A stretch of DNA of 64,000 nt from positions 221 to 64,220 of the forward strand of contig CANFXR010000003.1 in assembly GCA_947451035.1 (NCBI GenBank), written 5' to 3'. Both the position numbers and the translations under genes were made by a program. The notes under the pieces were generated by a model. The model saw only the letters and a program-made list of their open reading frames with translations. It searched no databases and had not been told where the DNA came from. This document shows positions 11,544-60,935 of the stretch, in pieces (positions within the stretch are counted from its first letter, which is position 1; each line of letters opens with the position of its first letter). The DNA is from Burkholderiales bacterium (GTDB lineage Bacteria > Pseudomonadota > Gammaproteobacteria > Burkholderiales > Burkholderiaceae_C).

Positions 11544-12440
11544 ATGAGCATCTCCGCCACCTCGAACTCCCATGAACGCGGCTTGCAGGTGGCCGTGGCC
11601 TTCTGCCTGCTCGATGTGTGCCTGACGGGGGGCGCGGCGTTTGCCTCGACCTCGCTCACCATCATGAGCGACCTGCTCAAGGAGTCGACTGACTTCCTGG
11701 CCGTGCTGGCGGCGTACCTCACGGTGCGCGCGGTGCGTCGCGCACCCGACGAGCGCTACGGCTACGGCATCGGCAAGCTCGAGAACCTGGTCAGCATGGC
11801 CATCGCCGTGGCGATGGTGGCGTGCGCGGGGTTCATCCTGATACAGGCGTCGCATCACCTGCGCGATCCGCAGCCCACCGAAGGCACGCTGCCCGGCATC
11901 GTGATCTTCTCGACCTATGCGGCGATCGGTTTCGGCATCTCGTTGCGCAACCGGCTCGAGCTGCGCAAGCGCGAGTCGGCGATCCTCGAATCACAGGCCC
12001 AGCTGTGGTTTTCCAAGGCGTGCTTCGACGCGCTGATGGCGCTCACGCTGATCACGCAGGTGGTGTGCCACGGGCAGCGCTGGAGCTTGTATCTGGATCC
12101 GATCGCGTCGCTGCTCGGCGTATTTTTCCTGCTGCACGCGGCCTGGGCGATCACCAGTTCATCGGTGGGTGACCTGCTCGATGCCAGCCTGTCCGAGCAC
12201 CTCCAGTTGCGCATCCTGCGCCAGCTGGTCGAGCGCTTCGACGACTACGACCGGCTGCACAAGATCCGCACCCGGCGCTCCGGGCCTCACGTGTACGTCG
12301 AAGTCTTTTTGCAGTTCGACCCCGCGCTGCTGATGCGCGAAGTGCAAAACCGCATCAACGCGATTGCCGCCCAGATCACCCGCGAGATTCCCGGCACGCA
12401 GGTGGTCATCGTGCCGTCGTGCGAGGCCCCTGCGGACTGA
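11544..12440 (+). CDS. Cation diffusion facilitator (CDF) family transporter
   Basis: Six-TM N-terminal part with CDF-like TM1/TM2 (ASTSLTIMSDLLKESTDF) and a cytoplasmic C-terminal domain (YVEVFLQFDP...). Confidence 0.75.
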   Translation: MSISATSNSHERGLQVAVAFCLLDVCLTGGAAFASTSLTIMSDLLKESTDFLAVLAAYLTVRAVRRAPDERYGYGIGKLENLVSMAIAVAMVACAGFILIQASHHLRDPQPTEGTLPGIVIFSTYAAIGFGISLRNRLELRKRESAILESQAQLWFSKACFDALMALTLITQVVCHGQRWSLYLDPIASLLGVFFLLHAAWAITSSSVGDLLDASLSEHLQLRILRQLVERFDDYDRLHKIRTRRSGPHVYVEVFLQFDPALLMREVQNRINAIAAQITREIPGTQVVIVPSCEAPAD

Positions 12441-12789: not shown

Positions 12790-13653
12790 TCACTCGCCGA
12801 GAAAGTGCTTGCGGTAGCGCGCCGGCAGGTCGTCCAGGCGGATGAGCATGGGCAGATCGGCGGTGTTGAATTCCGGGTCCCAGGCCGGTGGCCCCAGCAC
12901 CTTGGCGCCGCAGCGCAGGTAACCCTTGATCAGCGCGGGCGGCTCGACCGGCAGATCGCAGCGCAGCTGGTCGACCGGCAGCGGCAGGCGCGGACGAACC
13001 TGCCAGTCGATGGGTGCCAGGTGGGTGGCGCTCAGTTGCGTCCACAGGCTGGCGGCCACGTGGCCACCATCGCGCATGCCCACGCTGGCGCAGCCGATCA
13101 TCGTGTCGAGTTCGTTGCGCTTCATGAAGTCCGCGAGCGCGGCCCACAGCGCGAGGATGGCGCCACCCGATCGCCAGTCCGGGTGCACGCACGAGCGGCC
13201 CAGTTCGGCGATGCGCGTGCGCATCGCGCGCAGACGGGTCAGGTCGAATTCGGTCTCGCTGTACAGGCCGCCCACGCGCTTGGCCGCGGCCGGTGTCAGC
13301 ACGCGGTAGGTGCCGATCACGGGGCCGGGCTCGCCATCGGTGCTCACGCGCAGCAGCAGGTGTTCGCAGTGGTCGTCGAACAGGTCGGCGTCGTGGCCGC
13401 TGGGCGTGCCGGACGGCACCGACACGCGCGCACCCATTTCCTCGACGAACACGCGGTGGCGCAGTTGCTGTGCCAGTCGCACTTCATCGAGGTTGCGTGC
13501 CCACACGGCTTCGAAGGTGACGGGCGCGGTGCGGGCCCGCGGTTGCCGGTGCATGACCGGATGGGACGCCACCTGCACCGGGATGGAGCGGAACGGGTTC
13601 TTGCTCGGACGCAGATCGAACAGCGGCAGGGTGGGCATGGGCACGTCCCTCAT
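12790..13653 (-). CDS. GNAT-family lipid N-acyltransferase, OlsB-like (ornithine/amino-lipid synthesis)
   Basis: ATG at 13653 is preceded by AAGGAGAA. Typical OlsB/hemolysin-like GNAT motifs are present (LRHRVFVEEMGA, YRVL, SETEFDL, ELGRSCVHPDWR). Confidence 0.7.
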   Translation of the reverse strand: MRDVPMPTLPLFDLRPSKNPFRSIPVQVASHPVMHRQPRARTAPVTFEAVWARNLDEVRLAQQLRHRVFVEEMGARVSVPSGTPSGHDADLFDDHCEHLLLRVSTDGEPGPVIGTYRVLTPAAAKRVGGLYSETEFDLTRLRAMRTRIAELGRSCVHPDWRSGGAILALWAALADFMKRNELDTMIGCASVGMRDGGHVAASLWTQLSATHLAPIDWQVRPRLPLPVDQLRCDLPVEPPALIKGYLRCGAKVLGPPAWDPEFNTADLPMLIRLDDLPARYRKHFLGE

Positions 13654-13703: not shown

Positions 13704-13732
13704 GTGACGGTTTCTTGACGAAGCCGTGACAG
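13704..13732 (-). promoter_or_regulatory. Pho-box-like array (three 7-mers at 11-bp spacing) facing the OlsB-like gene
   Basis: The minus strand reads CTGTCAC-ggct-TCGTCAA-gaaa-CCGTCAC, against the consensus CTGTCAT-n4-CTGTCAT. It lies 51 nt upstream of the ATG. Confidence 0.5.
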
Positions 13733-13769: not shown

Positions 13770-13787
13770 GTGTCAACAGCCTGTCAT
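13770..13787 (+). promoter_or_regulatory. Pho-box-like direct repeat facing the PlcP/LpxH-like gene
   Basis: GTGTCAA-cagc-CTGTCAT. The second half-site matches 7/7. Confidence 0.5.
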
Positions 13788-13811: not shown

Positions 13812-14696
13812 ATGCACACACCTCCCGCCAGCATGGACGACGCCAACAAGGATGCAACCCTGGACGTGCGCACGGTCTGGATCTCGGACCTGCACCTGGG
13901 CACGCCGGGCTGCCAGGCGACCGCGCTGCTCGAATTCCTGCGCACCACCGAATGCCAGACGCTGTATCTGGTGGGCGACATCATCGACGGCTGGCAACTG
14001 CGCCGCTCCTGGTACTGGCCGCAAAGCCACAACGACGTGGTGCAAAAGATCTTGCGCAAGGCACGCAAGGGCACACGCGTGATCTTCGTGCCCGGCAACC
14101 ACGATGAATTTGCGCGCCGCTATGTGGCGCACAACTTCGGTGGCGTGGACATCGTCGAGGAATGCGTGCACACGCTGGCCGACGGTCGCCGCCTGTGGAT
14201 CACTCACGGCGACTTGTTCGACGGCGTGATCCAGTGCGCCAAGTGGCTGGCCTATGCGGGCGACGCCGCCTATGAATTCACGCTCAAGCTGAACCGCCGC
14301 TTCAATGCGGCGCGCGCGAGGCTCGGTCTGCCGTACTGGAGCTTGTCGCGCTTCTTGAAGCTCAAGGTCAAGCGTGCGGTCAGCTACATGGGCGACTTCG
14401 AGGCCGCGCTGGCCGCCGAGGCGCGCAAACGCGGCCTCGACGGCGTCGTGTGCGGGCACATCCACCACGCCGAGATCCGCCAGGTCGACGGGGTGCTGTA
14501 CTGCAACGACGGCGACTGGGTTGAAAGCCTCACCGCGCTGGTCGAGCACCACGACGGGCGGCTCGAAATCATCGACCACAGCGCCGAGGCGCAGCACAGC
14601 GTGGCGCCAGCCCAAGCGCCCCGATCCACCCCCGCGCTGCAGCCTTTGCCCAGCGGTGTGGCGATCGGTCGCATCGAGATCTCGCCGGGCTCCTGA
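13812..14696 (+). CDS. LpxH-family metallophosphoesterase, PlcP-like (phospholipase C of lipid renovation) or UDP-2,3-diacylglucosamine diphosphatase paralog
   Basis: Metallophosphoesterase motifs are present (ISDLHLG, VGDIIDGW, GNHDE, THGD, GHIH), as is the WYWPQSHNDVVQK block typical of this subfamily. An alternative start is ATG 13833. Confidence 0.7.
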   Translation: MHTPPASMDDANKDATLDVRTVWISDLHLGTPGCQATALLEFLRTTECQTLYLVGDIIDGWQLRRSWYWPQSHNDVVQKILRKARKGTRVIFVPGNHDEFARRYVAHNFGGVDIVEECVHTLADGRRLWITHGDLFDGVIQCAKWLAYAGDAAYEFTLKLNRRFNAARARLGLPYWSLSRFLKLKVKRAVSYMGDFEAALAAEARKRGLDGVVCGHIHHAEIRQVDGVLYCNDGDWVESLTALVEHHDGRLEIIDHSAEAQHSVAPAQAPRSTPALQPLPSGVAIGRIEISPGS

Positions 14697-14750: not shown

Positions 14751-15617
14751 TCAGGCCGCAGGGCCCTGCTGCATCAGCGCTTGCCCCATGCGGATGCGCT
14801 GACCGGTGGTGATGCCCTCGCACAAGCTGAACCCGGGCGGGGCGAACACCAGGATGGTCGAGCCGTGCTGGAACCAGCCCATCTCCTGACCCTTGGCAAA
14901 GCGGGCCTGGCAGGCGATCTCGTTCGCGCCCCGGTAGCGCAGGTGCAGCAGCACATCCAGAAAGTGCAGCCGGATGCTGGCCACCAGGATGGCGGCCACC
15001 GGCACCAGCGCGATGGGCTGGCCGCCGCGCTGCAGCCGCAGCCGCAGCACGGCGCGCTCGTTCTTGCAAAACAGCTGCTCGACACGCGCCAGCGCGATCG
15101 GGTTGACGTTCCAGGTGTCACCACTCAGGTAGCTCAGGTGCTCGACGTCGCAGTCCTGCGGCGCATGGAAGCGGTGGTACATCGCCGAGGTCAGCCGCAA
15201 GGTCACGTAGGTTCCGTTGCGGAACGCGCTGGTGTCTTGCGTGGGCCCGAACAGGTCCTTGATCGCGTACGGAAAGCCCTTGGCCTGGAACACCTGGCCG
15301 TCTTCAACCTGCCCGCACGCGCCGACTATCGCGTCACACGGGCTGCTCAGGATGTCGGTGCGCGCATCGATCGTGCGCGCACCGTCCTTGAGTTCGCGCG
15401 TGAAGCAATCGTGCAGACTGGCAAAGCGCTGCTGACGCGCGTCGCTGAGGTCCAGGTCGGTGAACAGCCGCCACACCGCGATCGACGCGCTGGCCACCCA
15501 CGGGTGACGGATCTGGCTGAACCAGCCCATCGCGCGCGTGAGCAGCATGCGCGGAACGCGGTTGGTCAGCAGGAAATTGAGGTCTTCGTTGGCGACGATT
15601 CTGCGCAGCGGATTCAT
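14751..15617 (-). CDS. Phosphatidylserine decarboxylase-related (pyruvoyl-dependent) protein
   Basis: Psd-family pattern with a G-S-T self-cleavage site (FQHGSTILVF) near the C-terminus. ATG 15617; an in-frame GTG at 15626 is also possible. Confidence 0.7.
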   Translation of the reverse strand: MNPLRRIVANEDLNFLLTNRVPRMLLTRAMGWFSQIRHPWVASASIAVWRLFTDLDLSDARQQRFASLHDCFTRELKDGARTIDARTDILSSPCDAIVGACGQVEDGQVFQAKGFPYAIKDLFGPTQDTSAFRNGTYVTLRLTSAMYHRFHAPQDCDVEHLSYLSGDTWNVNPIALARVEQLFCKNERAVLRLRLQRGGQPIALVPVAAILVASIRLHFLDVLLHLRYRGANEIACQARFAKGQEMGWFQHGSTILVFAPPGFSLCEGITTGQRIRMGQALMQQGPAA

Positions 15618-15619
15618 GG

Positions 15620-15637
15620 TTTTCACGGTCCTGTCAA
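15620..15637 (+). promoter_or_regulatory. Pho-box-like direct repeat facing the aminotransferase gene
   Basis: TTTTCAC-ggtc-CTGTCAA, ending 46 nt before ATG 15683. It overlaps the 5' end of the Psd-like gene. Confidence 0.4.
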
Positions 15638-15682
15638 TTGAGGCTAGTAAACAGCGGGTTGGGCATCAACACACACACATTC

Positions 15683-17335
15683 ATGGACGAATCCTTTGCT
15701 CTATCTGCCTTGGCGCTGGGCGTGTTCGCCTGGGCGTTCCCGCGCGCCAAGCAGCGGCTCGAGCTGTCGCGCGCCAAGCACCGCTCGCTGGCCGGCCATT
15801 CGCGCATGGCCAAGCGCGTGGCCGGGCTGGTCCCCGGCTACGCCTACGACGAGGACGACTTTTTCGGGTCTGACGGCGCCAGCGCTGACGTGATCGCCCG
15901 CCGGCGTGCGGGCTTCGAGCAACTGACGCGGCTGTACGACGAGCGTTACCCGCGCAGCGCCGCGATGACCGCCGAGGCGCGCGAGGGCGTGTCCGACTTG
16001 CAGTTCACCAGCAGCTACCGCGTGCCGTTCCAGTACAGCCCGTACCTGCGCCAGCACCTGAAGTCGGGCAGCTTCTTGCAGGCGTCGCACGGCGTGACGG
16101 TCGAAGACCTCGACGGCAACGCGTTCTACGACCTGACCGGCTCGTACGGCGTCAACGTGTTCGGCGTCGACTTCTACAAGGAGTGCATCGACGAGGGCGC
16201 GGCCAACGTGCGCGCGCTCGGCCCGGTGCTCGGTGCGTATCACCCGTGCGTGCTCGACAACGTGCAGCGCCTGAAGGCGATTTCCGGACTCGACGAGGTG
16301 TCGTTCCACATGTCGGGCACCGAAGCCGTGATGCAGGCGGTGCGGCTGGCGCGGTATCACACCGGTCGAACGCACCTGGTGCGCTTTTGCGGCGCGTACC
16401 ACGGCTGGTGGGGCGATGTGCAGCCCGGCCCCGGCAACCCGCTGCCGCCGCGCGAGACCTACACGCTGCGCGACATGCACGACAACGCGCTCAAGGTGCT
16501 GCGCACGAGGCGCGACATCGCCTGCGTGCTGGTCAACCCCTTGCAGGGACTGCACCCGAACGCCGGCGCGCCGGCCGACTCGTCGCTGGTCGACAGCGGC
16601 CGCTGCGCCGGCTTTGACCGCGAGGCCTACACCGCGTGGCTGCGTGAACTGCGCGCGGTGTGCACCGAGCGCGGCATCGTGCTGATCTTCGACGAGGTGT
16701 TCGTGGGCTTTCGGCTCGCGCCGCGCGGCGCGCAGCAGTACTTCGGCGTGGCCGCCGACATGGTGGTCTACGGCAAGACGCTGGGCGGTGGGTTGCCGGT
16801 GGGCGTGGTGTGCGGTCGCGCGGCGCTGATGAAGCGCTTTCGCGAGGACCGCCCGGCCGATCTGTGCTTTGCCCGCGGAACCTTCAACGCCCACCCGTAC
16901 GTCATGGGCGCGATGAACGCGTTTCTCCGACGGCTCGACAGCGCACCCGTGCAGGCGATCTACGACGGCATCGACGCGCGGTGGGAGCAGCGCGCGCAAC
17001 GCTTCAATCAGGCGCTCGAGGCGGCGGGCGTGCCGGTGCGCATCGCGAACCTGCAGTCGATCTGGACGGTGTTCTACACACAGCCCGCGCGCTACAACTG
17101 GATGCTGCAGTTCTACCTGCGGGCACATGGGCTGGCGCTGAGCTGGGTGGGTTCGGGTCGCATCATCTTCAGCCTCAACTACAGCGACGCCGATGTCGCC
17201 GAGGTGCAGCAGCGCTTCGTGGCCGCGGCGCGCGACATGCAGGTCGCCGGCTGGTGGGACGGTGCGGCGACGAGCAACCGCTTGATCCGCCGCGGCATCC
17301 TGCGCGAGATGCTGCAGCGGCGGTTTCGACGCTGA
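15683..17335 (+). CDS. Class-III (GSA-aminomutase-like) PLP aminotransferase with an N-terminal extension of about 130 aa
   Basis: Class-III motifs are present (FHMSGTEAVMQAVRLAR, LIFDEVFVGFR, YGKTLGGGLPVG). The N-terminus has a hydrophobic segment (FALSALALGVFAWAF). Confidence 0.75.
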   Translation: MDESFALSALALGVFAWAFPRAKQRLELSRAKHRSLAGHSRMAKRVAGLVPGYAYDEDDFFGSDGASADVIARRRAGFEQLTRLYDERYPRSAAMTAEAREGVSDLQFTSSYRVPFQYSPYLRQHLKSGSFLQASHGVTVEDLDGNAFYDLTGSYGVNVFGVDFYKECIDEGAANVRALGPVLGAYHPCVLDNVQRLKAISGLDEVSFHMSGTEAVMQAVRLARYHTGRTHLVRFCGAYHGWWGDVQPGPGNPLPPRETYTLRDMHDNALKVLRTRRDIACVLVNPLQGLHPNAGAPADSSLVDSGRCAGFDREAYTAWLRELRAVCTERGIVLIFDEVFVGFRLAPRGAQQYFGVAADMVVYGKTLGGGLPVGVVCGRAALMKRFREDRPADLCFARGTFNAHPYVMGAMNAFLRRLDSAPVQAIYDGIDARWEQRAQRFNQALEAAGVPVRIANLQSIWTVFYTQPARYNWMLQFYLRAHGLALSWVGSGRIIFSLNYSDADVAEVQQRFVAAARDMQVAGWWDGAATSNRLIRRGILREMLQRRFRR

Positions 17336-17388: not shown

Positions 17389-17997
17389 TCAATCAGCACG
17401 AACGTGTGGGGTCGTCTCGACCCACTCGCCGCGCAGCAGTTGCAACGGGGCGCGGTGGTAGAGCTTGATGTCGTGGAACGGGTCGCTCAGGATCTTGCTC
17501 ATCCAGACCAGCCCGGTGGCCAGGTCCTGCTGGACCCACAACTGACCCACCCGCACGAACAGACCGGCGGCGCCGAGAGCGAGCCAGCCGATGCCCACGT
17601 CATGCAGGTAGGCGCTGAACGACGTGGCCGGCGCGATCAGGTTGAACACCGACGGTGAGGCCCACAACAGCAGAGGGATCGCGGCCCACACGGCGAGCAG
17701 GACGATCTTGCGGCGGATGTTGTAGCCGACCTTGACCTCTTCCTTGAAGGCGTCGGTGACCTGGTTGAGTTGGTCGTAGCCGCGCGGCTCGAAGAAGAAG
17801 TGCCCGGCCTGACGGCTGGTCATCGACACGCCCCAAGCGAGGATGGCCGCCATCGCCGGATCCACGAACAGCAGCCCGTAAGAGATCACGAAGCAGATCG
17901 CGCTCAGCAGGTGCAGGCTCTGGTTGATGCGGCTGTGGTGGTAGTAGCGGTGGTCGTCCCAGCGCTGCTCTTCGAGTGCTTGCAGAAATTGGTTCAC
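17389..17997 (-). CDS. Mpo1-like (DUF962) membrane protein
   Basis: The coding-looking part of a longer ORF. A GTG start at 17997 is preceded by AAGG. It carries HSRINQSLH (H-x4-N-x3-H) and GHFFFEPRG blocks resembling DUF962, and three to four TM helices. Confidence 0.5.
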   Translation of the reverse strand: MNQFLQALEEQRWDDHRYYHHSRINQSLHLLSAICFVISYGLLFVDPAMAAILAWGVSMTSRQAGHFFFEPRGYDQLNQVTDAFKEEVKVGYNIRRKIVLLAVWAAIPLLLWASPSVFNLIAPATSFSAYLHDVGIGWLALGAAGLFVRVGQLWVQQDLATGLVWMSKILSDPFHDIKLYHRAPLQLLRGEWVETTPHVRAD

Positions 17998-18075: not shown

Positions 18076-18093
18076 GTGAAAGCGGCGTGACGG
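18076..18093 (-). promoter_or_regulatory. Weaker Pho-box-like repeat facing the Mpo1-like gene
   Basis: The minus strand reads CCGTCAC-gccg-CTTTCAC, 79 nt upstream of GTG 17997. Confidence 0.3.
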
Positions 18094-18162
18094 TCGCACC
18101 GTGCCGCGGCGAATGTGGCGCCTTGTCATCAAGTTGTTGCGATCGGCGTGCAGCATGGTGCG

Positions 18163-19395
18163 ATGGATTTGTCGGACATGCCCAGCATCGCGGCCTCTCA
18201 CCCTGTGGCGGACCGGCCATCGCTGCGCCTGGCGGTGGTCACCGAAACCTACCCGCCCGAGGTCAACGGCGTGGCGCTCACGCTGGCGCGCGTGGTCGAG
18301 GGCCTGCACCGGCGCGGCCACGACGTGCAACTGATCCGTCCGCGGCAGAACCCGGCCGATGCGCCCCGCACGAGCCCACGTTTTCAAGAGGTGCTGATGC
18401 GCGGGCTGCCGATCCCCAACTACCCGTCGCTGCGCATGGGGCTGCCGGCGCGCCGCGCGCTGATCCGGCTGTGGGGCGAGCAGCGCCCCGACGCCGTCCA
18501 CATCGCCACCGAAGGGCCGCTGGGCTGGTCGGCGCTGAGCGCGGCTGCCTACCTGAAGCTGCCGGTCAGCTCGGACTTCCGGACCAACTTTCACGCCTAC
18601 AGCCGCTACTACCGAATCGGCTGGCTCAACCGGCCGGTGATGGCCTATCTGCGCTGGTTCCACAACCGCACCGGCCGCACCATGGTGCCCACCGACGCGC
18701 TGCGCCGCGAGCTCGAGCTCATCGGGCTGCGCAACCTGAGCGTGGTCTCGCGCGGGGTCGACACCGCCGGCTTTTCACCCGACCAGCGCAGCGACGACGT
18801 GCGCCGCAGCTGGGGCGCGGAGCCCGACGACCTGGTGGTCACCTGCGTCGGGCGTCTCGCGCCCGAGAAGAACCTGGGCGTCGTCTTGCGCGCCTTCGAG
18901 GCGATCCGCGCCGTGCAGCCGCGAGCACGTCTGGTGTGGGTGGGCGACGGCCCGCAGCGCGATGAGCTGCACGCACTGTGCCCGTCGGCCTTCTTTGCCG
19001 GCCACCGCCACGGCGAGCAGCTGGCCGCGCATTACGCCTCGGCCGATCTGTTCTTGTTTCCCAGCCTGACCGAGACCTTCGGCAACGTCACCACCGAAGC
19101 CATGGCCAGCGGCCTGGCGGTGGTGGCCTACGACCACGCCGCCGCCGCCCAACTGATACGCCACGGTGACAACGGCCTGCTCGCGCCGTGCGACGACGAG
19201 CCCGCCTTCGTGCAGGCCGCGCTTGATCTGGCCGCCCACCCCGAACGCCGCCGCACCCTGGGCGCCCAGGCCCGGCGCAGCGCGTGCGAGCTCGACTGGG
19301 ATGTGATCGTCGAGCGCTTCGAAGGTGTGGTCGCGTCGCTGATCCAGCCACCGCGCCTGTGCAGGCTTGCTCCTGTCACGAGGGTAAAACTATAA
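18163..19395 (+). CDS. GT4-family glycosyltransferase (Agt-like glycolipid synthase candidate)
   Basis: N-terminal LRLAVVTETYPPEVNGVA and C-terminal FLFPSLTETFGNVTTEAMASGLAVVA (E-x7-E region) are typical of GT4. The start could be ATG 18163 or 18178. Confidence 0.8.
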   Translation: MDLSDMPSIAASHPVADRPSLRLAVVTETYPPEVNGVALTLARVVEGLHRRGHDVQLIRPRQNPADAPRTSPRFQEVLMRGLPIPNYPSLRMGLPARRALIRLWGEQRPDAVHIATEGPLGWSALSAAAYLKLPVSSDFRTNFHAYSRYYRIGWLNRPVMAYLRWFHNRTGRTMVPTDALRRELELIGLRNLSVVSRGVDTAGFSPDQRSDDVRRSWGAEPDDLVVTCVGRLAPEKNLGVVLRAFEAIRAVQPRARLVWVGDGPQRDELHALCPSAFFAGHRHGEQLAAHYASADLFLFPSLTETFGNVTTEAMASGLAVVAYDHAAAAQLIRHGDNGLLAPCDDEPAFVQAALDLAAHPERRRTLGAQARRSACELDWDVIVERFEGVVASLIQPPRLCRLAPVTRVKL

Positions 19396-19520
19396 AAACA
19401 GCCCACTGCACCCAATAGAATTTTCGGGAGACCTTGGAAACCTGAGGTCGTTGCATCCAGCCGCGATGATGGCGCGCCACGGGTGTGGGTCGTTGCCGGT
19501 TATCGAGCCGAGGCGCGGTG

Positions 19521-20402
19521 ATGATCAAGCCGATGGACAACGAAAAGCTGGCACGCGCCGCAGTCTGGGTGTCGGCGTCCGCGGTGATGTGGTGTCTGGC
19601 TGCAGCCATCGCCAGCACGTCGCTGACATTGATCGCCGATGTGGTGAACGCCTCGCTGGATCTGGCCGCCTGTGTGCTGGCTTATGTGACGTTGCGGCTG
19701 CAGCGGGGCACCTATCGCGCCTTGCTTGATTACGGCGTGGGCAAGCTTGAGGCCATCGCTTCGCTTTTCATCGGCTTGCTGGCTGGCGGCGGTGCGGCAT
19801 TTGTTCTGTACGAGGCTTTTCGCGCGCTGGTCAATCCGCAGCCCGTGTCTGGCGGCGGCATTGTCTGGGGCCTCATCGGGTGCTGGGTGATCAGCGGGCT
19901 TTGCGGGCGTTTGTGGTGGCAGTTCAAGCGGCAGCTTTCGCATGGCGATTCGCCGATAACAGCCGCCCAAATGCACATACACCTCATCAGCTGCTGGACG
20001 TCGCTCGGGGTTTCGGTGCCACTGGCGTGTTCGCTGGTCTTCAACGCCGGCTGGGTGCGTTACCTGGATGTCACGATTTCTGTGGCGCTGGGTCTGTTTG
20101 CGGCCCACGTGGGCTGGGGCATGGTTCGCCACTCGTTGGGCAACATGGTCGATCAGTCCCTGGACGAACCTTTGCAGGTCATCATCAACCGACACCTGGT
20201 CGAGCATTTCGAGACTTACGGAATGTTCGAAAAGGTTCGATCGCGCACCTGTGGCACCGACATCTTTATCGAGATATTTCTGAACTTCCAGCCGCACACG
20301 TCCATCGGCGACATTCAGGTGGTGTTCGATGCCATCAAAGGTGGCATCGAAAGCGACATCCACAAATCGCACGTGACCATGATCGCGGCTGCCGTGAAAT
20401 AG
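19521..20402 (+). CDS. Second CDF-family transporter (paralog of 11544..12440), lower GC
   Basis: Same architecture as the first CDF (ASTSLTLIADVVNASLDL, C-terminal IFIEIFLNFQP). The codon third positions are visibly richer in A/T than in its neighbours. Confidence 0.7.
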   Translation: MIKPMDNEKLARAAVWVSASAVMWCLAAAIASTSLTLIADVVNASLDLAACVLAYVTLRLQRGTYRALLDYGVGKLEAIASLFIGLLAGGGAAFVLYEAFRALVNPQPVSGGGIVWGLIGCWVISGLCGRLWWQFKRQLSHGDSPITAAQMHIHLISCWTSLGVSVPLACSLVFNAGWVRYLDVTISVALGLFAAHVGWGMVRHSLGNMVDQSLDEPLQVIINRHLVEHFETYGMFEKVRSRTCGTDIFIEIFLNFQPHTSIGDIQVVFDAIKGGIESDIHKSHVTMIAAAVK

Positions 20403-53683: not shown

Positions 53684-55192
53684 ATGAGTCTCTTCTCGCT
53701 GCTCGACCACACGGCTACACGCTTCCCCGATCACGGCGCGGTTTTCCGCGGGCTTGAGCAGGTTCTCTCCTGGCGAGAACTGAAGGCTCGGGCGCTGGGG
53801 TTGGGCGCAGGAATACGCACCAGGTGTCGCCCTGGCGATCGCGTGGCGCTCGTCAGTGAGAACCGCACCGAATATGTCGAGCTGATGTTCTCGGCATGGG
53901 CCGCCGAGGCCGTCACCGTGCCGGTCAACTACAAACTGCACGACAAGGAGGTGTCCCAGATCCTGGAGGACGCTGAGGTGTCGCTGGTCTTCGTGTCGCC
54001 GAAGCTGCTCGCCGGGTTGCCCCGCACGGTAGCGACTTATGGTGACAGGATGGTGGTCATCGGCGACGCCGCTTACGAACAAATGGTGTCTGGCGAGCCG
54101 ATTGCCGTTCCGTCGGCCGAGCCGGAAGCCTTGGCGTGGCTGTTCTACACGAGCGGAACCACCGGCCGATCAAAGGGCGCCATGCTGTCCCATCGCAACC
54201 TGATGGCGGCGACCATCGCCCACTTGGCCGACATCGAGTCGCTCGATGAGTGGTGTAGCCAATTGCATGTGGCGCCCATGTCGCACGGTTCAGGCATGTA
54301 CATGCTGCCGTCGATCGCGCGCGGCGCGCGGCAGGTCGTTCCAGCCTCCGGCGCCTTCGAGCCTGTGGAATTCCTCGAACTTTGCGACCAGCATCCGGCG
54401 TGCGGGGCCTTCTTGGCCCCGACCATGATCCAGCGCTTGCGGATCGCGGTCGAAGAAGGCAAGCGAAGCCGGCCGAAGCATCTGCGCAACATCGTTTACG
54501 GTGGCGGGCCGATGTACGTCGAGGAGCTGAGAAAGTCGACCACTGTGCTGGGCCCGGTGTTCTCGCAGATCTACGGCCAAGGCGAAGCCCCGGTCACCAT
54601 CACCGGAATGAATCAGGCTGCGCACGTCACCGATGACGATGCCATCCTGGGCTCTGTCGGTTGGCCCCGAAGCGGCACCGAGGTTCGGGTGACCGACTCG
54701 GATGGCAAGGACTTGCCGGCTGGCTCGATCGGCGAAATCCTGTGCCGCGGTGATGTGGTGATGGCGGGGTATTGGCGAAACCCCTCGGCAACTGCCGAGA
54801 CGCTGCGCGGTGGGTGGCTCCATACGGGTGACATGGGTTCGTTCGATGAGCGTGGCTGCCTGACGCTGAGAGACCGTTCCAAGGACGTCGTGATCAGCGG
54901 AGGCAGCAACATTTACCCCCGTGAAGTGGAGGAGGTACTGCTATTGCATCCAGCCGTCGCAAAGACCAGCGTTGTGGGGCGTCCTGACAACGAATGGGGC
55001 GAGGTGCTCATTGCCTTTGTGGTCCGGGAGGCGGGGGCCGAGGTCAGCACCGCCGAGCTTGATGCGCATTGCCTTGAACACATCGCACGCTTCAAGCGGC
55101 CGAAGGAATATAAATTCCTCGATGAGTTACCAACCAGCAGTTATGGCAAGGTTCTCAAGAGCGAGTTGAGAAAGCTTTTGGAAAACACCTGA
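53684..55192 (+). CDS. AMP-dependent acyl-CoA synthetase/ligase
   Basis: AMP-binding motifs YTSGTTGRSKGA, GEIL.RG and GWLHTGD, with a C-terminal K in SSYGKVLK. Confidence 0.85.
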   Translation: MSLFSLLDHTATRFPDHGAVFRGLEQVLSWRELKARALGLGAGIRTRCRPGDRVALVSENRTEYVELMFSAWAAEAVTVPVNYKLHDKEVSQILEDAEVSLVFVSPKLLAGLPRTVATYGDRMVVIGDAAYEQMVSGEPIAVPSAEPEALAWLFYTSGTTGRSKGAMLSHRNLMAATIAHLADIESLDEWCSQLHVAPMSHGSGMYMLPSIARGARQVVPASGAFEPVEFLELCDQHPACGAFLAPTMIQRLRIAVEEGKRSRPKHLRNIVYGGGPMYVEELRKSTTVLGPVFSQIYGQGEAPVTITGMNQAAHVTDDDAILGSVGWPRSGTEVRVTDSDGKDLPAGSIGEILCRGDVVMAGYWRNPSATAETLRGGWLHTGDMGSFDERGCLTLRDRSKDVVISGGSNIYPREVEEVLLLHPAVAKTSVVGRPDNEWGEVLIAFVVREAGAEVSTAELDAHCLEHIARFKRPKEYKFLDELPTSSYGKVLKSELRKLLENT

Positions 55193-55223
55193 CCGATAAT
55201 TTTTTAAAAACTGGAGAAAACCG

Positions 55224-56393
55224 ATGAGCGTGGCAATCGTTGGGTGGGCACAAACTCCCTTTGGTAAGTTTGACAATGAAAGCGTCGAAAGCCTGATCGT
55301 CAAGGCGGTCAACGAGGCACTTGCCTATGCCGGCGTGGCGGCAGCAGATGTGGATGAGATCTATCTCGGCCACTTCAATGCGGGCTTTTCGAAGCAGGAC
55401 TTCACCGCATCGTTGGTACTTCAGGCCGATGATGGCTTGCGCTTCAAGCCAGCCACGCGTGTAGAAAACGCATGCGCCACCGGATCAGCGGCCATTCACC
55501 AAGGCATCAAGTCGATCGAAGCAGGGCGCGCACGCATTGTCCTGGCGGTGGGTGTCGAGCAGATGAGCCTGACACCCGGCCCCGAAGTAGGCTCCAACCT
55601 GCTACGTGCGTCCTACCTGCGAGAAGAAAGCGATATTCAAGGGGGCTTTGCCGGCCTGTTCGGAAAAATAGCGCAGTCCTATTTCGACAAGTATGGCGAC
55701 CAGTCTGATGCGTTGGCAATGATCGCAGCCAAGAACCACAAGAATGGAGTTTCCAACCCTTATGCTCAGATGCGAAAGGATCTGGGCTTTGATTTTTGTC
55801 GACAGGTCAGCGACAAGAACCCTATCGTTGCCGGCCCGTTGAAGCGCACTGACTGTTCTCCTGTTTCCGATGGCGCGGCCGCCGTGGTGCTGGCCGATCA
55901 CAACACCGCCCTGTCAATGCGTAAGGCGGTTGCTGTCCGGTCGGTGGCGCATGTCCAGGATTACCTGCCGATGTCCCGCCGCGATATCTTGCTATTTGAA
56001 GGGTGTTCTTTGGCATGGCGCCAAGCACTGTCGGCGGCCAACCTGCAGCTCTCGGATTTGTCGTTTGTCGAGACGCACGACTGTTTCACGATGGCCGAGT
56101 TGATCGAATACGAGGCGATGGGACTGACTCCTTACGGCCAGGGCGCGCGCGCCATTCAGGAGGGGTGGACCCTCGTTGGCGGGAAGCTGCCCGTCAACCC
56201 GTCCGGTGGATTGAAGTCCAAGGGTCACCCCGTGGGCGCCACTGGCGTATCGATGCACGTGATGACGGCCATGCAACTGAATGGCGAGCTTCCTGCACCC
56301 ATTACCGTCAACAACGCAACCCTCGGTGGAATTTTCAATATGGGTGGCGCCGCGGTGGCCAACTACGTCAGCATCCTTGAGCGCGTGAGGTAG
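55224..56393 (+). CDS. Thiolase-family protein (SCP-x / non-condensing type)
   Basis: GGAG SD upstream. Active-site block NACATGSAAI, then ETHDCFT and KGHPVGATG. Confidence 0.8.
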   Translation: MSVAIVGWAQTPFGKFDNESVESLIVKAVNEALAYAGVAAADVDEIYLGHFNAGFSKQDFTASLVLQADDGLRFKPATRVENACATGSAAIHQGIKSIEAGRARIVLAVGVEQMSLTPGPEVGSNLLRASYLREESDIQGGFAGLFGKIAQSYFDKYGDQSDALAMIAAKNHKNGVSNPYAQMRKDLGFDFCRQVSDKNPIVAGPLKRTDCSPVSDGAAAVVLADHNTALSMRKAVAVRSVAHVQDYLPMSRRDILLFEGCSLAWRQALSAANLQLSDLSFVETHDCFTMAELIEYEAMGLTPYGQGARAIQEGWTLVGGKLPVNPSGGLKSKGHPVGATGVSMHVMTAMQLNGELPAPITVNNATLGGIFNMGGAAVANYVSILERVR

Positions 56394-56793
56394 CCGACGA
56401 CCCATTCTGGCGGGCTGCTCATGGCGAGAACGCGACTCATCTCCAAGCGAGTCCGAGGCATCCCGAAGTCGCACTTGCGTGTCCGGTGCGTCCAGATTGC
56501 GGACGGGCTGGTCTGTTGTGACGGGGGTGCTCGGGTTCATTTCGTCTGAATTCCGAACACTTTGGTCGATTTCTACGGGGGATTCCCTCGGTAACGTTTG
56601 CCCGTTTGGGACGTACAGTCCGACTTCGCTCTGGCGCACATGGCCCAATCGGGCCACATCGCGAGTTCACCGATTGCCCGTGGCTCGAATTGGAGGAGTT
56701 CGCAGATTGTTTCTGCGTTCGCCGGTAGCGAGTCGAACTTGAAACTGCCAGCTTCGGCAACTAAAGGCACACACCCCAGAGGCGAGCAAGCAA

Positions 56794-58836: not shown

Positions 58837-59166
58837 GTGCCAGACTTGAATCTTTCGCATCATGCTGAGTTGATGGCGCTGAGATCGCCCTACGGCAATC
58901 CGTAAATTTGCGGCACAAAGGCGCGGCACTCCTGGCGCGGGTGTAACGTGCCCCGCGCTCTGCACTTTCGGTGCGCCGAATGTCACAGGTTCGAAGGGTG
59001 CAATCGAGCCCAAGTCGGGTTCAAATCTTGCTCTACTTTCGAAAACAAAGTCAGTTCTCGGGATCTGCCTGGGTTCAATGAGCGCAGCCTGCCACCACCA
59101 ACGGTGGGGCCCTGTGAATTGGCCTGAGAATTTCTCTATTCAATATATAAATCCATTTTTAATAAC

Positions 59167-59916
59167 ATGAACGGAGCTGTGTTTGTGTCTGGTAAAAAGA
59201 TGTCCGGCTATACACTTACCTCTACCTTGCTCAAGGGATACAGAAAAGCAGCGGTCGATAACGCGAGAGAACTACAGTACGAAGCGGCCCTGCTTCTAGC
59301 CAACAACCATTTTTCACGCGCATATTTTTTGGCGACGGCTTCCATCGAGGAAATTGGGAAAGCCGTCCAAGCCTTCGATGCGTTAGGGCGAAACGTAAGA
59401 GACACAGAGATATCAACTCGTGTCAGGCTTAACTTCCAGGATTACTCGAAAAAGCTCGCGGCTGCAGTGTTCCCATGGATGTTACGTGACCCTAAAAATC
59501 GCGAGTCAGTAGCGCTATTTATTGAGACTCTGGTAGAAGCCAAGAACGCCAGTGAGCCATCGCTATTCGTGGGTATCGAACCACAAGGGATGGACATTCA
59601 TACTCCCTTCGCAGTGGTTCGTCGTGAAATGGCCGAAGAATGTGTGCGGATGGCACGAACCATATTTTCGTATGCTGCGCCGCATGTATTGGATGGTCAT
59701 TACAAGGTTCGCACCAAGGCGGAGGATGATTTTTTTGTAATGAAACCTTCGTCCGTTTTGAACATGTCGAGCGGGGCAGATTTCTGGCAGTACTACATAG
59801 CGTGCATGAAATCCGGGGATGCGGCTTTTGAGGCGGCATTGATGGACTACACCAAAAAATATCTAGCAAAGAATGAAAAGTACAAGGGCGCAGACCTTGG
59901 CGGACTCGAAGCCTGA
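59167..59916 (+). CDS. AbiV-like (HEPN-superfamily) abortive-infection family protein candidate
   Basis: The N-terminal helix pair ..AVDNARELQYEAALLLANNHFSRAYFLATASIEEIGKA.. resembles the AbiV family signature as I remember it. The gene sits in a markedly AT-richer islet. The start is ATG 59167 or 59200. Confidence 0.45.
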   Translation: MNGAVFVSGKKMSGYTLTSTLLKGYRKAAVDNARELQYEAALLLANNHFSRAYFLATASIEEIGKAVQAFDALGRNVRDTEISTRVRLNFQDYSKKLAAAVFPWMLRDPKNRESVALFIETLVEAKNASEPSLFVGIEPQGMDIHTPFAVVRREMAEECVRMARTIFSYAAPHVLDGHYKVRTKAEDDFFVMKPSSVLNMSSGADFWQYYIACMKSGDAAFEAALMDYTKKYLAKNEKYKGADLGGLEA

Positions 59917-60015
59917 ACGCGCTCAAAGAGGCGCCGGTCAGCCTGTTTCGCTTGTTTCAGGCGGTTAAAAGAGCAACCTTCACTGGCAATTTTTTCACAA
60001 AAGGAGATGACAGAA

Positions 60016-60645: not shown

Positions 60646-60713
60646 TGTACGTTCCCGGCCGGCATGGCGGGCCGACCGGAAGACGAACGGTCGCGAAAGC
60701 GGGCGTCCGACTT

Positions 60714-60725
60714 CCATCCGGATGG
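60714..60725. promoter_or_regulatory. Candidate activator (UAS) palindrome upstream of the acx promoter
   Basis: Perfect 12-bp palindrome ccatccggatgg about 95 nt upstream of the -24 element. GGATGG recurs at 60737-60742, and an AT-rich stretch follows. Confidence 0.3.
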
Positions 60726-60819
60726 TGAGTTAGCTTGGATGGCGTGGGTGTACCATGTTGCCGAGAAAAACGTTAAGAAACAATAAGTTAAGTTGATTTT
60801 TTGTGTGCTGTCGATGGGC

Positions 60820-60834: not shown

Positions 60835-60935
60835 GATGGGAACACCGTTCGGTCTCAGTCAGATCGTTCAGTAATTTCGGGCCCGTGAGGGCTATTGGCG
60901 TAGACCAGATTGCTTTTTTTTATGGAGACGTGGAG

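What the first reader, a model, noticed from the sequence alone, without database searches (positions are those of the whole stretch)
14751..17335. Divergent Psd-like decarboxylase and N-terminally extended class-III aminotransferase: unknown head-group chemistry
One gene encodes a pyruvoyl-type decarboxylase homologue with an HGST cleavage site in place of the usual LGST. The other encodes a 550-aa GSA-aminomutase-like PLP enzyme. Its first roughly 130 aa (a hydrophobic segment plus a charged linker) have no counterpart in soluble class-III enzymes. The two share a 65-nt promoter region. A decarboxylase plus an aminotransferase or aminomutase acting at the membrane could make or remodel an amino-lipid head group. 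I cannot name a described pathway that uses this pair.
Basis: inference. Interest (0 to 1): 0.6.

Follow-up and report, generated by a model that had tools for sequence, protein, structure and literature searches.

The report
Phosphate-starvation membrane-lipid head-group enzyme module
The two genes are real and always travel together, and with two neighbours they form an uncharacterised four-gene set, apparently switched on by phosphate starvation, that probably makes an undescribed amine-bearing membrane lipid.

Summary
A second-copy phosphatidylserine-decarboxylase homologue (PsdL, HGST site) lies 65 nt from a divergent 550-aa class-III PLP enzyme (AT) with a hydrophobic, basic N-terminus.

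The pair is strongly conserved. In 300 evenly sampled genomes of the class, all 11 with PsdL also had AT. In a phylum sample, all 26 further AT carriers had PsdL, 22 on the same contig within 5 kb.

- AT is always next to, and in several lineages fused to, an Mpo1/DUF962-like histidine-rich membrane protein.
- In about 80 species the block PsdL-AT-Mpo1L-GT4 glycosyltransferase is nearly invariant. In one lineage it is a same-strand operon.
- Neighbours include PlcP-like phosphoesterase, Ugd, MFS, PhoX, Ppx, PhoA and BtaAB.
- Conserved Pho-box-like repeats precede the genes.

AT is not HemL. Its nearest solved relative is the MycA aminotransferase domain. Only about 60-85 N-terminal residues are unique, not 130.

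Best reading: a phosphate-starvation pathway of glycosylation, oxidation, transamination and decarboxylation that yields an amine-headed, phosphorus-free lipid. The product and the order of steps are inferred, not shown.

I found no paper describing it. This scan has noted the same module on other genomes many times.

The parts
12790..13638 (-). OlsB-like N-acyltransferase (Acetyltransf_5). The ORF extends to 13857; the likely start is the ATG at 13638. It is an island neighbour, not part of the core module.
   Evidence: PF13444 at 106 bits. NCBIfam OlsB models score 156 and 142 bits, below their cut-offs. It is linked to the module in only 5-7 of about 84 loci. The start was inferred from the sequence.
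13704..13732 (-). Three phased Pho-box-like 7-mers (CTGTCAC-n4-TCGTCAA-n4-CCGTCAC) facing the OlsB-like gene.
   Evidence: Read from the sequence. The best pair matches 10 of 14 consensus positions.
13770..13787 (+). Pho-box-like repeat GTGTCAA-n4-CTGTCAT upstream of the PlcP-like gene.
   Evidence: It matches CTGTCAT-n4-CTGTCAT at 12 of 14 positions. Only six sites in the 2.95-Mb genome score this high.
13812..14696 (+). PlcP-like calcineurin-type metallophosphoesterase. An alternative in-frame ATG lies at 13833.
   Evidence: PF00149 and PF12850. LpxH models score far below their cut-offs. It lies within 8 kb of the module in 24-27 of about 84 loci. Orthology to characterised PlcP was not tested.
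14751..15617 (-). PsdL: a second-copy phosphatidylserine-decarboxylase-family proenzyme of 288 aa.
   Evidence: Family matches; conservation. A housekeeping psd-pssA pair lies elsewhere, on C7.
14856..14867 (-). Codons of the H251-G252-S253-T254 autocleavage and pyruvoyl-forming site.
   Evidence: The role of G-S-T in E. coli PSD is described in PMC7952604.
15620..15637 (+). Pho-box-like repeat TTTTCAC-n4-CTGTCAA, followed about 10 nt later by a TAnA -10-like element, facing AT.
   Evidence: The pattern ..TTCAT-n4-nTGTCAA-n10-TAnA is conserved in 58 unique orthologous spacers. In most species the first half overlaps the PsdL start codon, so only the second half and its spacing count as independent evidence.
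15683..17335 (+). AT: a stand-alone class-III PLP aminotransferase of 550 aa with a hydrophobic and basic N-terminus. Its closest relative is the MycA AMT domain. The PLP lysine K365 is encoded at 16775-16777.
17389..17997 (-). Mpo1/DUF962-like histidine-rich polytopic membrane protein of 202 aa with a GTG start. It is the obligatory partner of AT.
   Evidence: The PF06127 match is sub-threshold, at 18-22 bits against a cut-off of 24. TM-score 0.91 to ESM Atlas clusters named Mpo1-like or DUF962. It is fused to AT in P0132, P0162, P0195, P0209 and L016.
18076..18093 (-). Pho-box-like repeat CCGTCAC-n4-CTTTCAC facing the Mpo1-like gene.
   Evidence: A site of the same type and position is conserved across 61 unique loci.
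18123..18140 (+). Pho-box-like repeat TTGTCAT-n4-TTGTTGC facing GT4.
   Evidence: The corresponding site in relatives typically reads CTGTCAT-n4-CTGTTGC or CTGTTAT.
18163..19395 (+). GT4 lipid-type glycosyltransferase of 410 aa from the in-frame ATG. The ORF opens at 18115.
   Evidence: GT4 Pfam families. The best NCBIfam hits are GlcNAc-PG synthase at 127 bits and MGlcDAG synthase at 87 bits, both below their cut-offs. It is in the block in 62 of 80 loci. Ugd lies directly downstream in 14 loci.

Best explanation
PsdL and AT are two of the four enzymes of a conserved membrane-lipid head-group module. The other two are the Mpo1-like protein and the GT4. Here the module sits inside a phosphate-starvation lipid-renovation island, next to an OlsB-like and a PlcP-like gene.

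Proposed working (inferred):
1. When phosphate is scarce, PhoB turns on the divergent promoters.
2. The PlcP-like esterase frees diacylglycerol from phospholipids.
3. GT4 puts a sugar on a lipid acceptor. The sugar is probably glucuronic acid, because Ugd is often adjacent.
4. The Mpo1-like protein, probably a metal- and O2-dependent enzyme, oxidises the head group to a carbonyl.
5. AT, held at the membrane by its N-terminus and working with the Mpo1-like protein, converts the carbonyl to an amine.
6. PsdL then removes the carboxyl of the resulting alpha-amino-acid-type head group through its pyruvoyl cofactor, leaving a primary amine.

The net effect would be to turn an acidic, phosphorus-free lipid into a zwitterionic and then a cationic lipid that can stand in for phosphatidylethanolamine. 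In some lineages the amine may then be methylated.

Shown here: the gene content, the linkage, the fusions, the catalytic residues and the conserved Pho-type repeats.
Inferred: every chemical step, the order of steps and the substrate.
For: Linkage:
- The AT orthologue is in 14 of 300 evenly sampled genomes of the class and the PsdL orthologue in 11. All 11 PsdL genomes also carry AT, and in 9 the two lie on one contig within 5 kb.
- In the phylum sample, 28 of 401 genomes carry AT. All 26 others that were checked carry PsdL, 22 of them on the same contig within 5 kb.
- In 80 species-level loci, PsdL is present in 77, Mpo1L in 74 and GT4 in 62. Most of the absences are at contig ends.
- In L007 the order is AT, X::GT4, PsdL, Mpo1L on one strand, with overlapping or abutting stop and start codons.

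Fusions:
- AT::Mpo1L occurs in at least four 50%-identity clusters and in L016.
- A 36%-identical AT also has an Mpo1-like gene immediately upstream.
- A PEMT::PsdL fusion lies next to a 221-aa gene and an Aminotran_3 gene.

Lipid and phosphate context:
- Recurrent neighbours are a PlcP-like gene (27 loci), MFS (29), Ugd (14), a UgtP-like GT28 (8), an OlsB-like gene (7), PhoX (5) and Ppx (4).
- L016 carries a PlcP-like gene, BtaB-like, BtaA (DUF3419), AT::Mpo1L, GT4 and PhoA.
- GDPD is present in several loci.

Regulation:
- 60 of 61 unique Mpo1L-GT4 spacers hold a match of at least 10 of 14 positions to the Pho-box consensus, against 8% of shuffled spacers. There is one conserved site facing each gene.
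- A TGTCAA-n10-TAnA element is conserved in the PsdL-AT spacer.
- One of the six best Pho-box matches in the genome lies upstream of the PlcP-like gene.

Enzyme competence:
- PsdL keeps the equivalents of E. coli D90, H144, H147 and G253-S254-T255.
- AT keeps the PLP lysine and aspartate.
- Mpo1L has invariant or near-invariant His, Glu and Asp residues.

Distinct roles:
- The genome has its own hemL and a psd-pssA pair elsewhere.
- Every PsdL-bearing genome checked also has a separate PSD paralogue at 26-35% identity.
Against: - No lipid, transcript or enzyme activity has been measured.
- The proposed chemistry has a gap. A pyranosidic glucuronosyl head group has no free alpha-hydroxyl, so the 'hydroxy-acid to keto-acid to amino-acid to amine' route needs a substrate that I cannot name.
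- AT's nearest relatives (the AMT domain and beta-transaminases) act on beta-keto or beta-amino groups. Such a product would not be a pyruvoyl-decarboxylase substrate.
- The only characterised Mpo1 decarboxylates 2-hydroxy fatty acids oxidatively. It does not simply dehydrogenate them (PMC10398889).
- PsdL passes the curated PSD model. It has Arg at the phosphate-contacting position, which 15% of true PSDs also have, so it may simply use phosphatidylserine.
- Three AT+Mpo1L lineages lack PsdL.
- The Mpo1-like assignment rests on sub-threshold Pfam scores.
- The pstS promoter of this genome matches the E. coli Pho-box consensus only weakly, at 9 of 14 positions.
- Orthology of the phosphoesterase to PlcP was not tested.
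Confidence: 0.5

Rival explanations
1. PsdL is an ordinary, stress-induced second phosphatidylserine decarboxylase that makes phosphatidylethanolamine (PE). AT and the Mpo1-like protein then act on the PS or PE head group itself. For example, they could deaminate the ethanolamine or serine amine and oxidise the product. That would be head-group conversion or salvage rather than synthesis of a new phosphorus-free lipid. GT4 would work in parallel, as Agt does.
For: - PsdL exceeds the curated PSD equivalog cut-off.
- It keeps all catalytic residues, and it has an anion-binding Arg where E. coli Tyr137 contacts the phosphate. That substitution occurs in 15% of PSDs.
- A PEMT::PsdL fusion mirrors the classical PE to PC methylation route.
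- Lineages without PsdL still have housekeeping PE available for AT and Mpo1L.
Against: - Every carrier checked already has a housekeeping PSD.
- In L007 the GT4 gene sits between AT and PsdL in one tightly packed operon. GT4 is also present in all module variants seen, which argues that the sugar lipid belongs to the same pathway.
- Making more phospholipid head groups fits poorly with Pho-box control and with PlcP, PhoX, PhoA and BtaAB as neighbours.
Confidence: 0.2
2. AT works like its closest relative, the MycA AMT domain. It would aminate a beta-keto acyl group, or a fatty aldehyde or keto acid produced by the Mpo1-like oxygenase. The module would then build a long-chain amine or beta-amino-acyl lipid, that is, an acyl-chain or sphingoid-like modification rather than a sugar head-group change. 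PsdL would decarboxylate a long-chain alpha-amino acid.
For: - The best sequence and structure matches are to the MycA AMT domain: 167 bits, and Z 33.9 with rmsd 2.5 over 422 residues. Beta-transaminases also rank high.
- A PKS/NRPS protein with an internal AMT domain is among the sequence relatives.
- Yeast Mpo1 acts on 2-hydroxy fatty acids (PMC10398889).
- PSD-family enzymes can use non-lipid amino acids; PsiD is one of the matches.
Against: - The module contains no carrier protein, acyltransferase or acyl-activating enzyme.
- The constant partner is a glycosyltransferase, and Ugd is frequent.
- Identity to the AMT domain is only about 30%.
- The idea does not explain the conserved Arg of PsdL or the GT4.
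Confidence: 0.1
3. The two genes are neighbours with no shared function. AT serves soluble amino-acid or tetrapyrrole metabolism, and PsdL is a redundant PSD copy.
For: Both belong to large housekeeping families. NCBIfam's best hits for AT are GSA-aminomutase models.
Against: - AT scores far below the hemL cut-off, and a true hemL exists elsewhere in the genome.
- PsdL was never found without AT in the 300-genome sample, and the two are almost always adjacent.
- The N-terminal anchor motif of AT is conserved.
- AT is fused to a membrane protein in several lineages.
Confidence: 0.03

Closest known systems
PlcP-Agt phosphate-starvation lipid remodelling (Sinorhizobium, SAR11, roseobacters, Pseudomonas aeruginosa, Burkholderia cenocepacia; PMC4796936, PMC13691135, PMC13700237)
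   Same: - Calcineurin-type phosphoesterase and GT4 glycosyltransferase genes are clustered.
- Pho-box-like repeats lie upstream.
- Neighbours include BtaAB, OlsB-like, PhoX and PhoA genes.
- The expected outcome is replacement of phospholipids by phosphorus-free lipids.
   Different: - The described systems contain no PSD paralogue, aminotransferase or Mpo1-like protein. None of these words occurs in the three papers checked.
- Their products (Glc-DAG, GlcA-DAG, tentative keto-GlcA-DAG) carry no nitrogen.
- Here the tightly linked core is PsdL-AT-Mpo1L-GT4, and the PlcP-like gene is only an occasional neighbour (about 30% of loci).
E. coli phosphatidylserine decarboxylase (PDB 7CNW, 6L06; PMC7952604)
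   Same: - Same family, at 107 bits.
- G-S-T self-cleavage site.
- Equivalents of Asp90, His144 and His147.
- An N-terminal amphipathic region.
   Different: - His or Gln replaces the Leu of LGST.
- Arg replaces Tyr137, Met replaces Asp142 and Asn replaces Ser166. All three are invariant in 12 PsdL orthologues.
- It is a second copy beside a housekeeping psd-pssA pair.
- It occurs only in genomes that also have AT.
Aminotransferase (AMT) domain of mycosubtilin synthase MycA (PDB 6KFM, 6KFU)
   Same: It is the best sequence match (167 bits) and the best structural match (Z 33.9, rmsd 2.5 over 422 residues; model residues 61-525). The PLP-binding residues are conserved.
   Different: - AT is a stand-alone protein, not a domain of a megasynthase, and has no adjacent carrier protein.
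- It has about 60 extra N-terminal residues (a hydrophobic helix plus the conserved basic motif RLxLSRAKHRSL) and an extra C-terminal helix.
- Identity is about 30%.
- Its partner is a polytopic membrane protein.
Yeast Mpo1, an Fe2+-dependent 2-hydroxy fatty acid dioxygenase (DUF962, PF06127; cited through PMC10398889)
   Same: A small polytopic protein. It has an H-x4-N-x3-H motif (H20, N25, H29) and further invariant His, Glu and Asp residues. There is weak but repeated PF06127 similarity, and a structural match to Atlas clusters named Mpo1-like.
   Different: Pfam scores are below the cut-off. There is no evidence that it handles fatty acids. It is always paired with, or fused to, an aminotransferase.
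ArnA/ArnB and NeoQ/NeoB-type 'oxidise then transaminate' routes to amino sugars (from general knowledge, not tested here)
   Same: The logic is an oxidation that creates a sugar carbonyl, with decarboxylation of a uronic acid in ArnA, followed by PLP transamination. Adjacent Ugd supplies UDP-glucuronate.
   Different: Those routes act on nucleotide sugars or soluble aminoglycosides. They use SDR or flavin oxidases, and ArnB uses a DegT-type aminotransferase. None uses a pyruvoyl decarboxylase or an Mpo1-like protein.

Membership tests
Phosphatidylserine decarboxylase family (PF02666 / TIGR00163) | Profile score above the curated cut-off | tested here: met
   PF02666 at 190 bits (cut-off 22) and TIGR00163 at 161 bits (cut-off 111.75).
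Phosphatidylserine decarboxylase family (PF02666 / TIGR00163) | G-S-T autocleavage site, plus the catalytic Asp90, His144 and His147 equivalents | tested here: met
   G252-S253-T254, D95, H148 and H151 are invariant in 12 orthologues. The roles of these residues come from PMC7952604.
Phosphatidylserine decarboxylase family (PF02666 / TIGR00163) | Canonical LGST motif and Asp142 | tested here: not met
   The motif is HGST, or QGST in 2 of 12 orthologues. Met146 stands in place of E. coli Asp142.
Phosphatidylserine decarboxylase family (PF02666 / TIGR00163) | Substrate is phosphatidylserine | not testable with these tools
   Arg141 replaces the phosphate-contacting Tyr137, a substitution reported in 15% of PSDs. 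This is compatible with PS or with another anionic head group.
Glutamate-1-semialdehyde 2,1-aminomutase (HemL) | Score above the hemL equivalog cut-off, and being the genome's hemL | tested here: not met
   TIGR00713 scores 170 bits against a cut-off of 527. A true hemL scores 584 bits at G000:C72:10351-11625.
Class-III (fold type I) PLP aminotransferases | PF00202 match, with the PLP lysine and the pyridine-nitrogen aspartate | tested here: met
   PF00202 at 105 bits. K365 and D337 are invariant in 26 sequences. The fold matches at Z of 30 or more.
PKS/NRPS AMT tailoring domain (MycA type) | Embedded in a megasynthase next to a carrier protein and acting on a tethered beta-ketoacyl group | tested here: not met
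   AT is a stand-alone gene. No carrier protein or synthase was found in about 84 neighbourhoods. Only the fold and sequence are closest to this domain.
Mpo1-like / DUF962 (PF06127), for the partner gene | Profile score above the cut-off | tested here: inconclusive
   Scores are 18.4, 21.2 and 22.2 bits against a cut-off of 24. TM-score is 0.91 to Atlas clusters named Mpo1-like or DUF962, one with 12% PF06127 members. There is no meaningful PDB match; the best is Z 6.3 over 48 residues.
PlcP-Agt lipid-remodelling system | PlcP-type metallophosphoesterase and Agt-type GT4 in one Pho-controlled cluster | tested here: inconclusive
   The Metallophos and GT4 genes are present. Orthology to characterised PlcP and Agt was not tested, because no reference sequences were at hand. 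The PlcP-like gene lies near the module in only about 30% of loci.
Pho regulon | PhoB-type direct repeats (7-mers at 11-bp phasing) replacing the -35 element | tested here: met
   Conserved sites lie in the Mpo1L-GT4 and PsdL-AT spacers. A 12-of-14 site lies upstream of the PlcP-like gene. This is sequence evidence only.
Pho regulon | Induction by phosphate limitation through PhoB | not testable with these tools
   No expression data were examined.

The most novel reading that the evidence does not exclude
The PsdL-AT-Mpo1L-GT4 module makes a so far undescribed class of phosphorus-free, amine-headed glycolipid, for example an amino-uronate or amino-pentose diacylglycerol. It would do so by oxidising, transaminating and decarboxylating the head group of a glucuronosyl lipid directly in the membrane. 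The product would give many freshwater and soil Proteobacteria a zwitterionic or cationic substitute for phosphatidylethanolamine during phosphate starvation. It would also be the first PSD-family enzyme known to act on a non-phospholipid and the first bacterial function for DUF962.
Probability: 0.35. Interest if true: 0.8.

Novelty: new variant of a known kind. Interest (0 to 1): 0.62.

Why it matters
Swapping phospholipids for phosphorus-free lipids is a major way in which environmental and pathogenic bacteria survive phosphate scarcity. It also changes their antibiotic and phage susceptibility.

The known toolkit is PlcP, Agt, BtaAB and OlsBA. The module described here adds three enzyme types not used by any described route, and it is present in roughly 5-7% of the sampled Pseudomonadota genomes.

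Identifying its product would:
- name a new membrane lipid;
- give DUF962 a bacterial function;
- show what a membrane-anchored AMT-like aminotransferase does;
- show what a second PSD copy is for;
- help to interpret unassigned nitrogen-bearing lipids in environmental lipidomes.

Tried and rejected
- Complex prediction of AT with PsdL gave no support: score 0.00 against a mark of 0.32. This is not evidence either way.
- A fold search of the Mpo1-like model against 48,161 PDB representatives gave only helical-hairpin matches, the best at Z 6.3 over 48 residues.
- The 520-aa N-terminal half of the L007 X::GT4 fusion matched nothing in Pfam or the PDB.
- I asked whether the module might make the alkylamines of Deinococcus/Thermus lipids. 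PF06127 does not ring in those two control genomes. I dropped the idea as unsupported.
- 'Stops inside' AT matches in three genomes looked like recoding. In the one I translated (L005), the alignment simply runs past the true stop codon.
- P0276, a PsdL fusion to the GT28-like protein, has a garbled middle region and is probably a frameshift or gene-calling artefact. I did not use it.
- P0136 and P0135, AT fusions with long N-termini, gave no usable context.
- A strict E. coli Pho-box scan (at least 10 of 14) found nothing upstream of pstS or phoB. Reading the pstS region showed weaker phased TCAY repeats, so the local consensus is looser than that of E. coli.
- Literature searches for the gene combination, for DUF962 in bacteria and for a Pho-induced second psd found nothing relevant.
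- The two primary Mpo1 papers are not held in the library.


Full report
**What is in the sequence**

The window comes from a 68% G+C genome: a metagenome-assembled Burkholderiales genome of 2.95 Mb in 164 contigs, 88% complete. GC3 analysis picks out the real genes around the finding.

- PsdL occupies 14751-15617(-), 288 aa from the ATG. It matches PF02666 at 190 bits and passes NCBI's PSD equivalog model TIGR00163 at 161 bits against a cut-off of 111.75.
- AT occupies 15683-17335(+), 550 aa, and matches PF00202.
- The two start codons are 65 nt apart.
- PsdL reads H-G-S-T at residues 251-254. In 12 orthologues G-S-T is invariant and the preceding residue is His in 10 and Gln in 2.

**Corrections to the description**

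AT is not a glutamate-1-semialdehyde aminomutase.
- It scores 170 bits against a hemL cut-off of 527.
- The genome has a true hemL at 584 bits on another contig.
- Its nearest solved relative, by sequence (167 bits against about 118 for GSAMs) and by fold, is the aminotransferase (AMT) domain of mycosubtilin synthase MycA. Foldseek ranks it first. VIA-align gives Z 33.9, rmsd 2.5 over 422 residues, covering model residues 61-525.
- Beta-transaminases and D-phenylglycine aminotransferase also rank among the closest folds.

The AlphaFold model is confident (pLDDT 86.5).
- GSAMs start aligning at about residue 85 and the AMT domain at residue 61.
- The truly unmatched part is therefore residues 1 to about 60. 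It comprises a hydrophobic helix, a basic helix with the conserved motif RLxLSRAKHRSLxGHSR, and a linker. There is also an extra C-terminal helix at residues 532-549.
- The hydrophobic stretch is short here, about 16 residues. In other orthologues it is 17-19 residues.

PsdL is a second copy. A short-type psd followed by a CDP-alcohol phosphatidyltransferase (pssA-like) gene lies on contig C7.

I aligned PsdL to E. coli PSD and read the alignment against the structural paper PMC7952604.
- PsdL keeps the equivalents of Asp90, His144, His147 and Gly253-Ser254-Thr255.
- It has Arg for the phosphate-contacting Tyr137. The paper reports this substitution in 15% of PSDs.
- It has Met for Asp142 and Asn for Ser166.
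- All of these are invariant in the PsdL clade.

**Is the pair conserved together?**

Yes, strongly.
- Among 300 genomes drawn evenly from the class, the AT orthologue (E no higher than 1e-60) is in 14 and the PsdL orthologue (E no higher than 1e-50) in 11. All 11 PsdL genomes carry AT. In 9 of them the two genes lie on one contig within 5 kb, and in one more the AT contig ends just after the gene.
- Each of these genomes also has a separate PSD paralogue at 26-35% identity, so PsdL never replaces the housekeeping enzyme.
- In a 401-genome phylum sample, 28 genomes carry AT. All 26 others that were checked carry PsdL, 22 of them on the same contig within 5 kb.
- These genomes are related to one another, so the counts overstate independence. 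They do span at least 12 genera and several families.

**The unit is larger than the pair**

In every one of the 13 class-level loci, AT is next to a roughly 200-aa polytopic, histidine-rich membrane protein. In the window this gene is 17389-17997(-).
- The protein is fused to the C-terminus of AT in four separate 50%-identity clusters (P0132, P0162, P0195, P0209) and in locus L016.
- An AT homologue of only 36% identity also has such a gene immediately upstream.
- It gives repeated but sub-threshold matches to Pfam Mpo1-like/DUF962, at 18-22 bits against a cut-off of 24.
- Its model (pLDDT 87) matches ESM Atlas clusters named Mpo1-like or DUF962 at TM-score 0.91, but matches nothing meaningful in the PDB.
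- Nineteen sequences share N25, Q26, H29, R62, Q63, G65, H66, E70, K168, D172 and P173, with H20 and D176 nearly invariant. That pattern suggests a metal site.
- The only characterised family member, yeast Mpo1, is an Fe2+-dependent dioxygenase that shortens 2-hydroxy fatty acids by one carbon (PMC10398889).

In 80 species-level loci from named genomes the block PsdL(-) AT(+) Mpo1L(-) GT4(+) is almost invariant.
- The genomes include Rhizobacter, Rubrivivax, Roseateles, Polaromonas, Rhodoferax, Variovorax, Curvibacter, Hydrogenophaga, Ideonella, Piscinibacter and Pelomonas. They also include the alphaproteobacteria Bradyrhizobium neotropicale, Roseomonas and Muricoccus.
- PsdL is present in 77 loci, Mpo1L in 74 and GT4 in 62. 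Most gaps are at contig ends.
- In L007 the four functions form a same-strand operon, AT, X::GT4, PsdL, Mpo1L, with overlapping or abutting stop and start codons.
- A metagenomic PsdL orthologue is fused to a PEMT-type membrane methyltransferase. It is followed by a 221-aa gene and a convergent Aminotran_3 gene.

**Context**

De novo clustering of neighbours in about 84 loci gives these counts:

| Neighbour | Loci |
|---|---|
| MFS transporter | 29 |
| PlcP-like metallophosphoesterase | 27 |
| UDP-glucose dehydrogenase, directly after GT4 | 14 |
| UgtP/MGDG-synthase-like GT28 | 8 |
| OlsB-like acyltransferase | 7 |
| PhoX | 5 |
| Ppx/GppA | 4 |

- GDPD appears in several loci.
- Three AT+Mpo1L lineages lack PsdL. 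One (L016) has the AT::Mpo1L fusion between a PlcP-like gene, a BtaB-like methyltransferase and BtaA (DUF3419) on one side and GT4 and PhoA on the other. Another (L014/L015) has a PlcP-like gene and GT4s; in L014 PEMT and a sulfotransferase were also identified.
- In the window itself, OlsB-like (12790-13638, -) and PlcP-like (13812-14696, +) genes lie directly upstream of PsdL.

This is the gene company of phosphate-starvation lipid remodelling as described for PlcP-Agt systems (PMC4796936, PMC13691135, PMC13700237). None of those papers mentions a decarboxylase or an aminotransferase.

**Regulatory signals**

- A scan of the whole genome for CTGTCAT-n4-CTGTCAT finds only six sites with at least 12 of 14 matches. 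One is 13770-13787, just upstream of the PlcP-like gene.
- In the Mpo1L-GT4 spacer, 60 of 61 unique orthologous sequences hold a match of at least 10 of 14, against 8% of shuffles. For at least 11 of 14 the figures are 40 of 61 against 0.6%.
- That spacer holds two positionally conserved sites, one facing each gene. The window's versions are 18076-18093(-) and 18123-18140(+).
- In the PsdL-AT spacer, 58 unique sequences share ..TTCAT-n4-nTGTCAA-n10-TAnA. This is the classical arrangement of a Pho box 10 nt upstream of a -10 element.
- The first half-site there overlaps the PsdL start codon in most species. It is not independent evidence.
- The pstS promoter of this genome shows only weaker phased TCAY repeats, so the local consensus is looser than that of E. 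coli.

I regard PhoB control as well supported by sequence, but it has not been demonstrated.

**How it probably works**

Shown:
- four genes are co-inherited, and in some lineages co-transcribed or fused;
- catalytic residues are intact in PsdL and AT;
- the setting is lipid and phosphate-stress genes;
- Pho-type repeats are conserved.

Inferred: GT4, fed with UDP-glucuronate where Ugd is adjacent, glycosylates a lipid acceptor, most simply the diacylglycerol released by PlcP. The Mpo1-like protein oxidises the head group to a carbonyl. AT aminates it at the membrane. PsdL decarboxylates the resulting alpha-amino-acid-type group to a primary amine. In some lineages a PEMT- or BtaB-like enzyme may then methylate it.

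This order accounts for three features:
- the very tight AT-Mpo1L coupling, which would suit a reactive intermediate;
- PsdL being dispensable in some lineages, since it would be the last step;
- the constant presence of GT4.

Its weaknesses are real:
- I cannot name a glycosyl head group with the free alpha-hydroxy-acid that the scheme needs.
- AT's relatives prefer beta-keto or beta-amino substrates.
- Mpo1 is an oxidative decarboxylase, not a dehydrogenase.
- PsdL looks fully compatible with ordinary phosphatidylserine.

I give the module-level statement (a lipid head-group pathway under phosphate-starvation control) about 0.75-0.8. I give the specific step order about 0.25. The overall confidence of 0.5 reflects both.

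**Comparison with what is known, and novelty**

The individual families are known and the physiological theme is known. The combination, and presumably the product, are not. Full-text searches for the gene combination, for DUF962 in bacteria and for a Pho-induced second psd found nothing. I classify it as a new variant of a known kind.

This scan has flagged the same module on other genomes at least ten times, and follow-up reports there reached similar conclusions. I formed the phosphate-starvation reading, before consulting those notes. I then tested their specific leads myself: the Pho boxes, the AT::Mpo1 fusions, the methyltransferase variants and ugd.

**Verdict**

It has the right kind of function but covers only half of the unit, and two descriptive details needed correction.
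- The finding is an uncharacterised but widespread pathway that could be tested directly by mutant lipidomics in cultured carriers.

Noticed in passing
G000:C83:4425-4442 (outside the window; locus L101 2425-2442): The best Pho-box match in the whole genome (13 of 14, CTGTCAC-n4-CTGTCAT) lies at the start of a CYTH-CHAD gene. This gene type encodes a triphosphate-tunnel enzyme with a polyphosphate-associated domain, so it is a plausible Pho-regulon member.
   Followed up: partly
G000:C18, locus L104 1212-2324 and 2500-2640: pstS is preceded by a fatty-acid-hydroxylase-family gene and by three phased repeats, GTGTCAC-n4-CCCTCAC-n4-GAGTCAT. The local Pho box therefore seems looser than the E. 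coli consensus.
   Followed up: partly
ESM Atlas match to the model of window 17389-17997(-): One Atlas cluster of Mpo1-like proteins that matches at TM-score 0.91 is 55% viral (Uroviricota). This suggests that phages carry this gene, perhaps as an auxiliary metabolic gene.
   Followed up: no
L007:10844-12403 (+): In the same-strand operon version, the GT4 domain is fused behind a 520-aa N-terminal region that matches no Pfam family and no PDB chain.
   Followed up: partly
P0277 (511 aa, metagenomic): A PsdL orthologue (61% identity) carries a roughly 200-aa C-terminal extension with an HD-domain-like HDVGH motif. It could be a genuine fusion or a read-through. Its context was not examined.
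   Followed up: no
window 11544-12440 (+) and 19485-20402 (+): Two cation-diffusion-facilitator (CDF) transporter genes flank the lipid island. The second has a clearly lower GC3 (about 0.76) than its neighbours.
   Followed up: no
window 54000-64000: G+C falls from about 0.68 to 0.53-0.60 over the last 10 kb of the window, which may mark foreign DNA.
   Followed up: no
L014:7040-8921 (-): In a PsdL-less variant of the module, a sulfotransferase and a PEMT-type methyltransferase sit next to the Mpo1-like gene. This hints at further head-group decorations.
   Followed up: no
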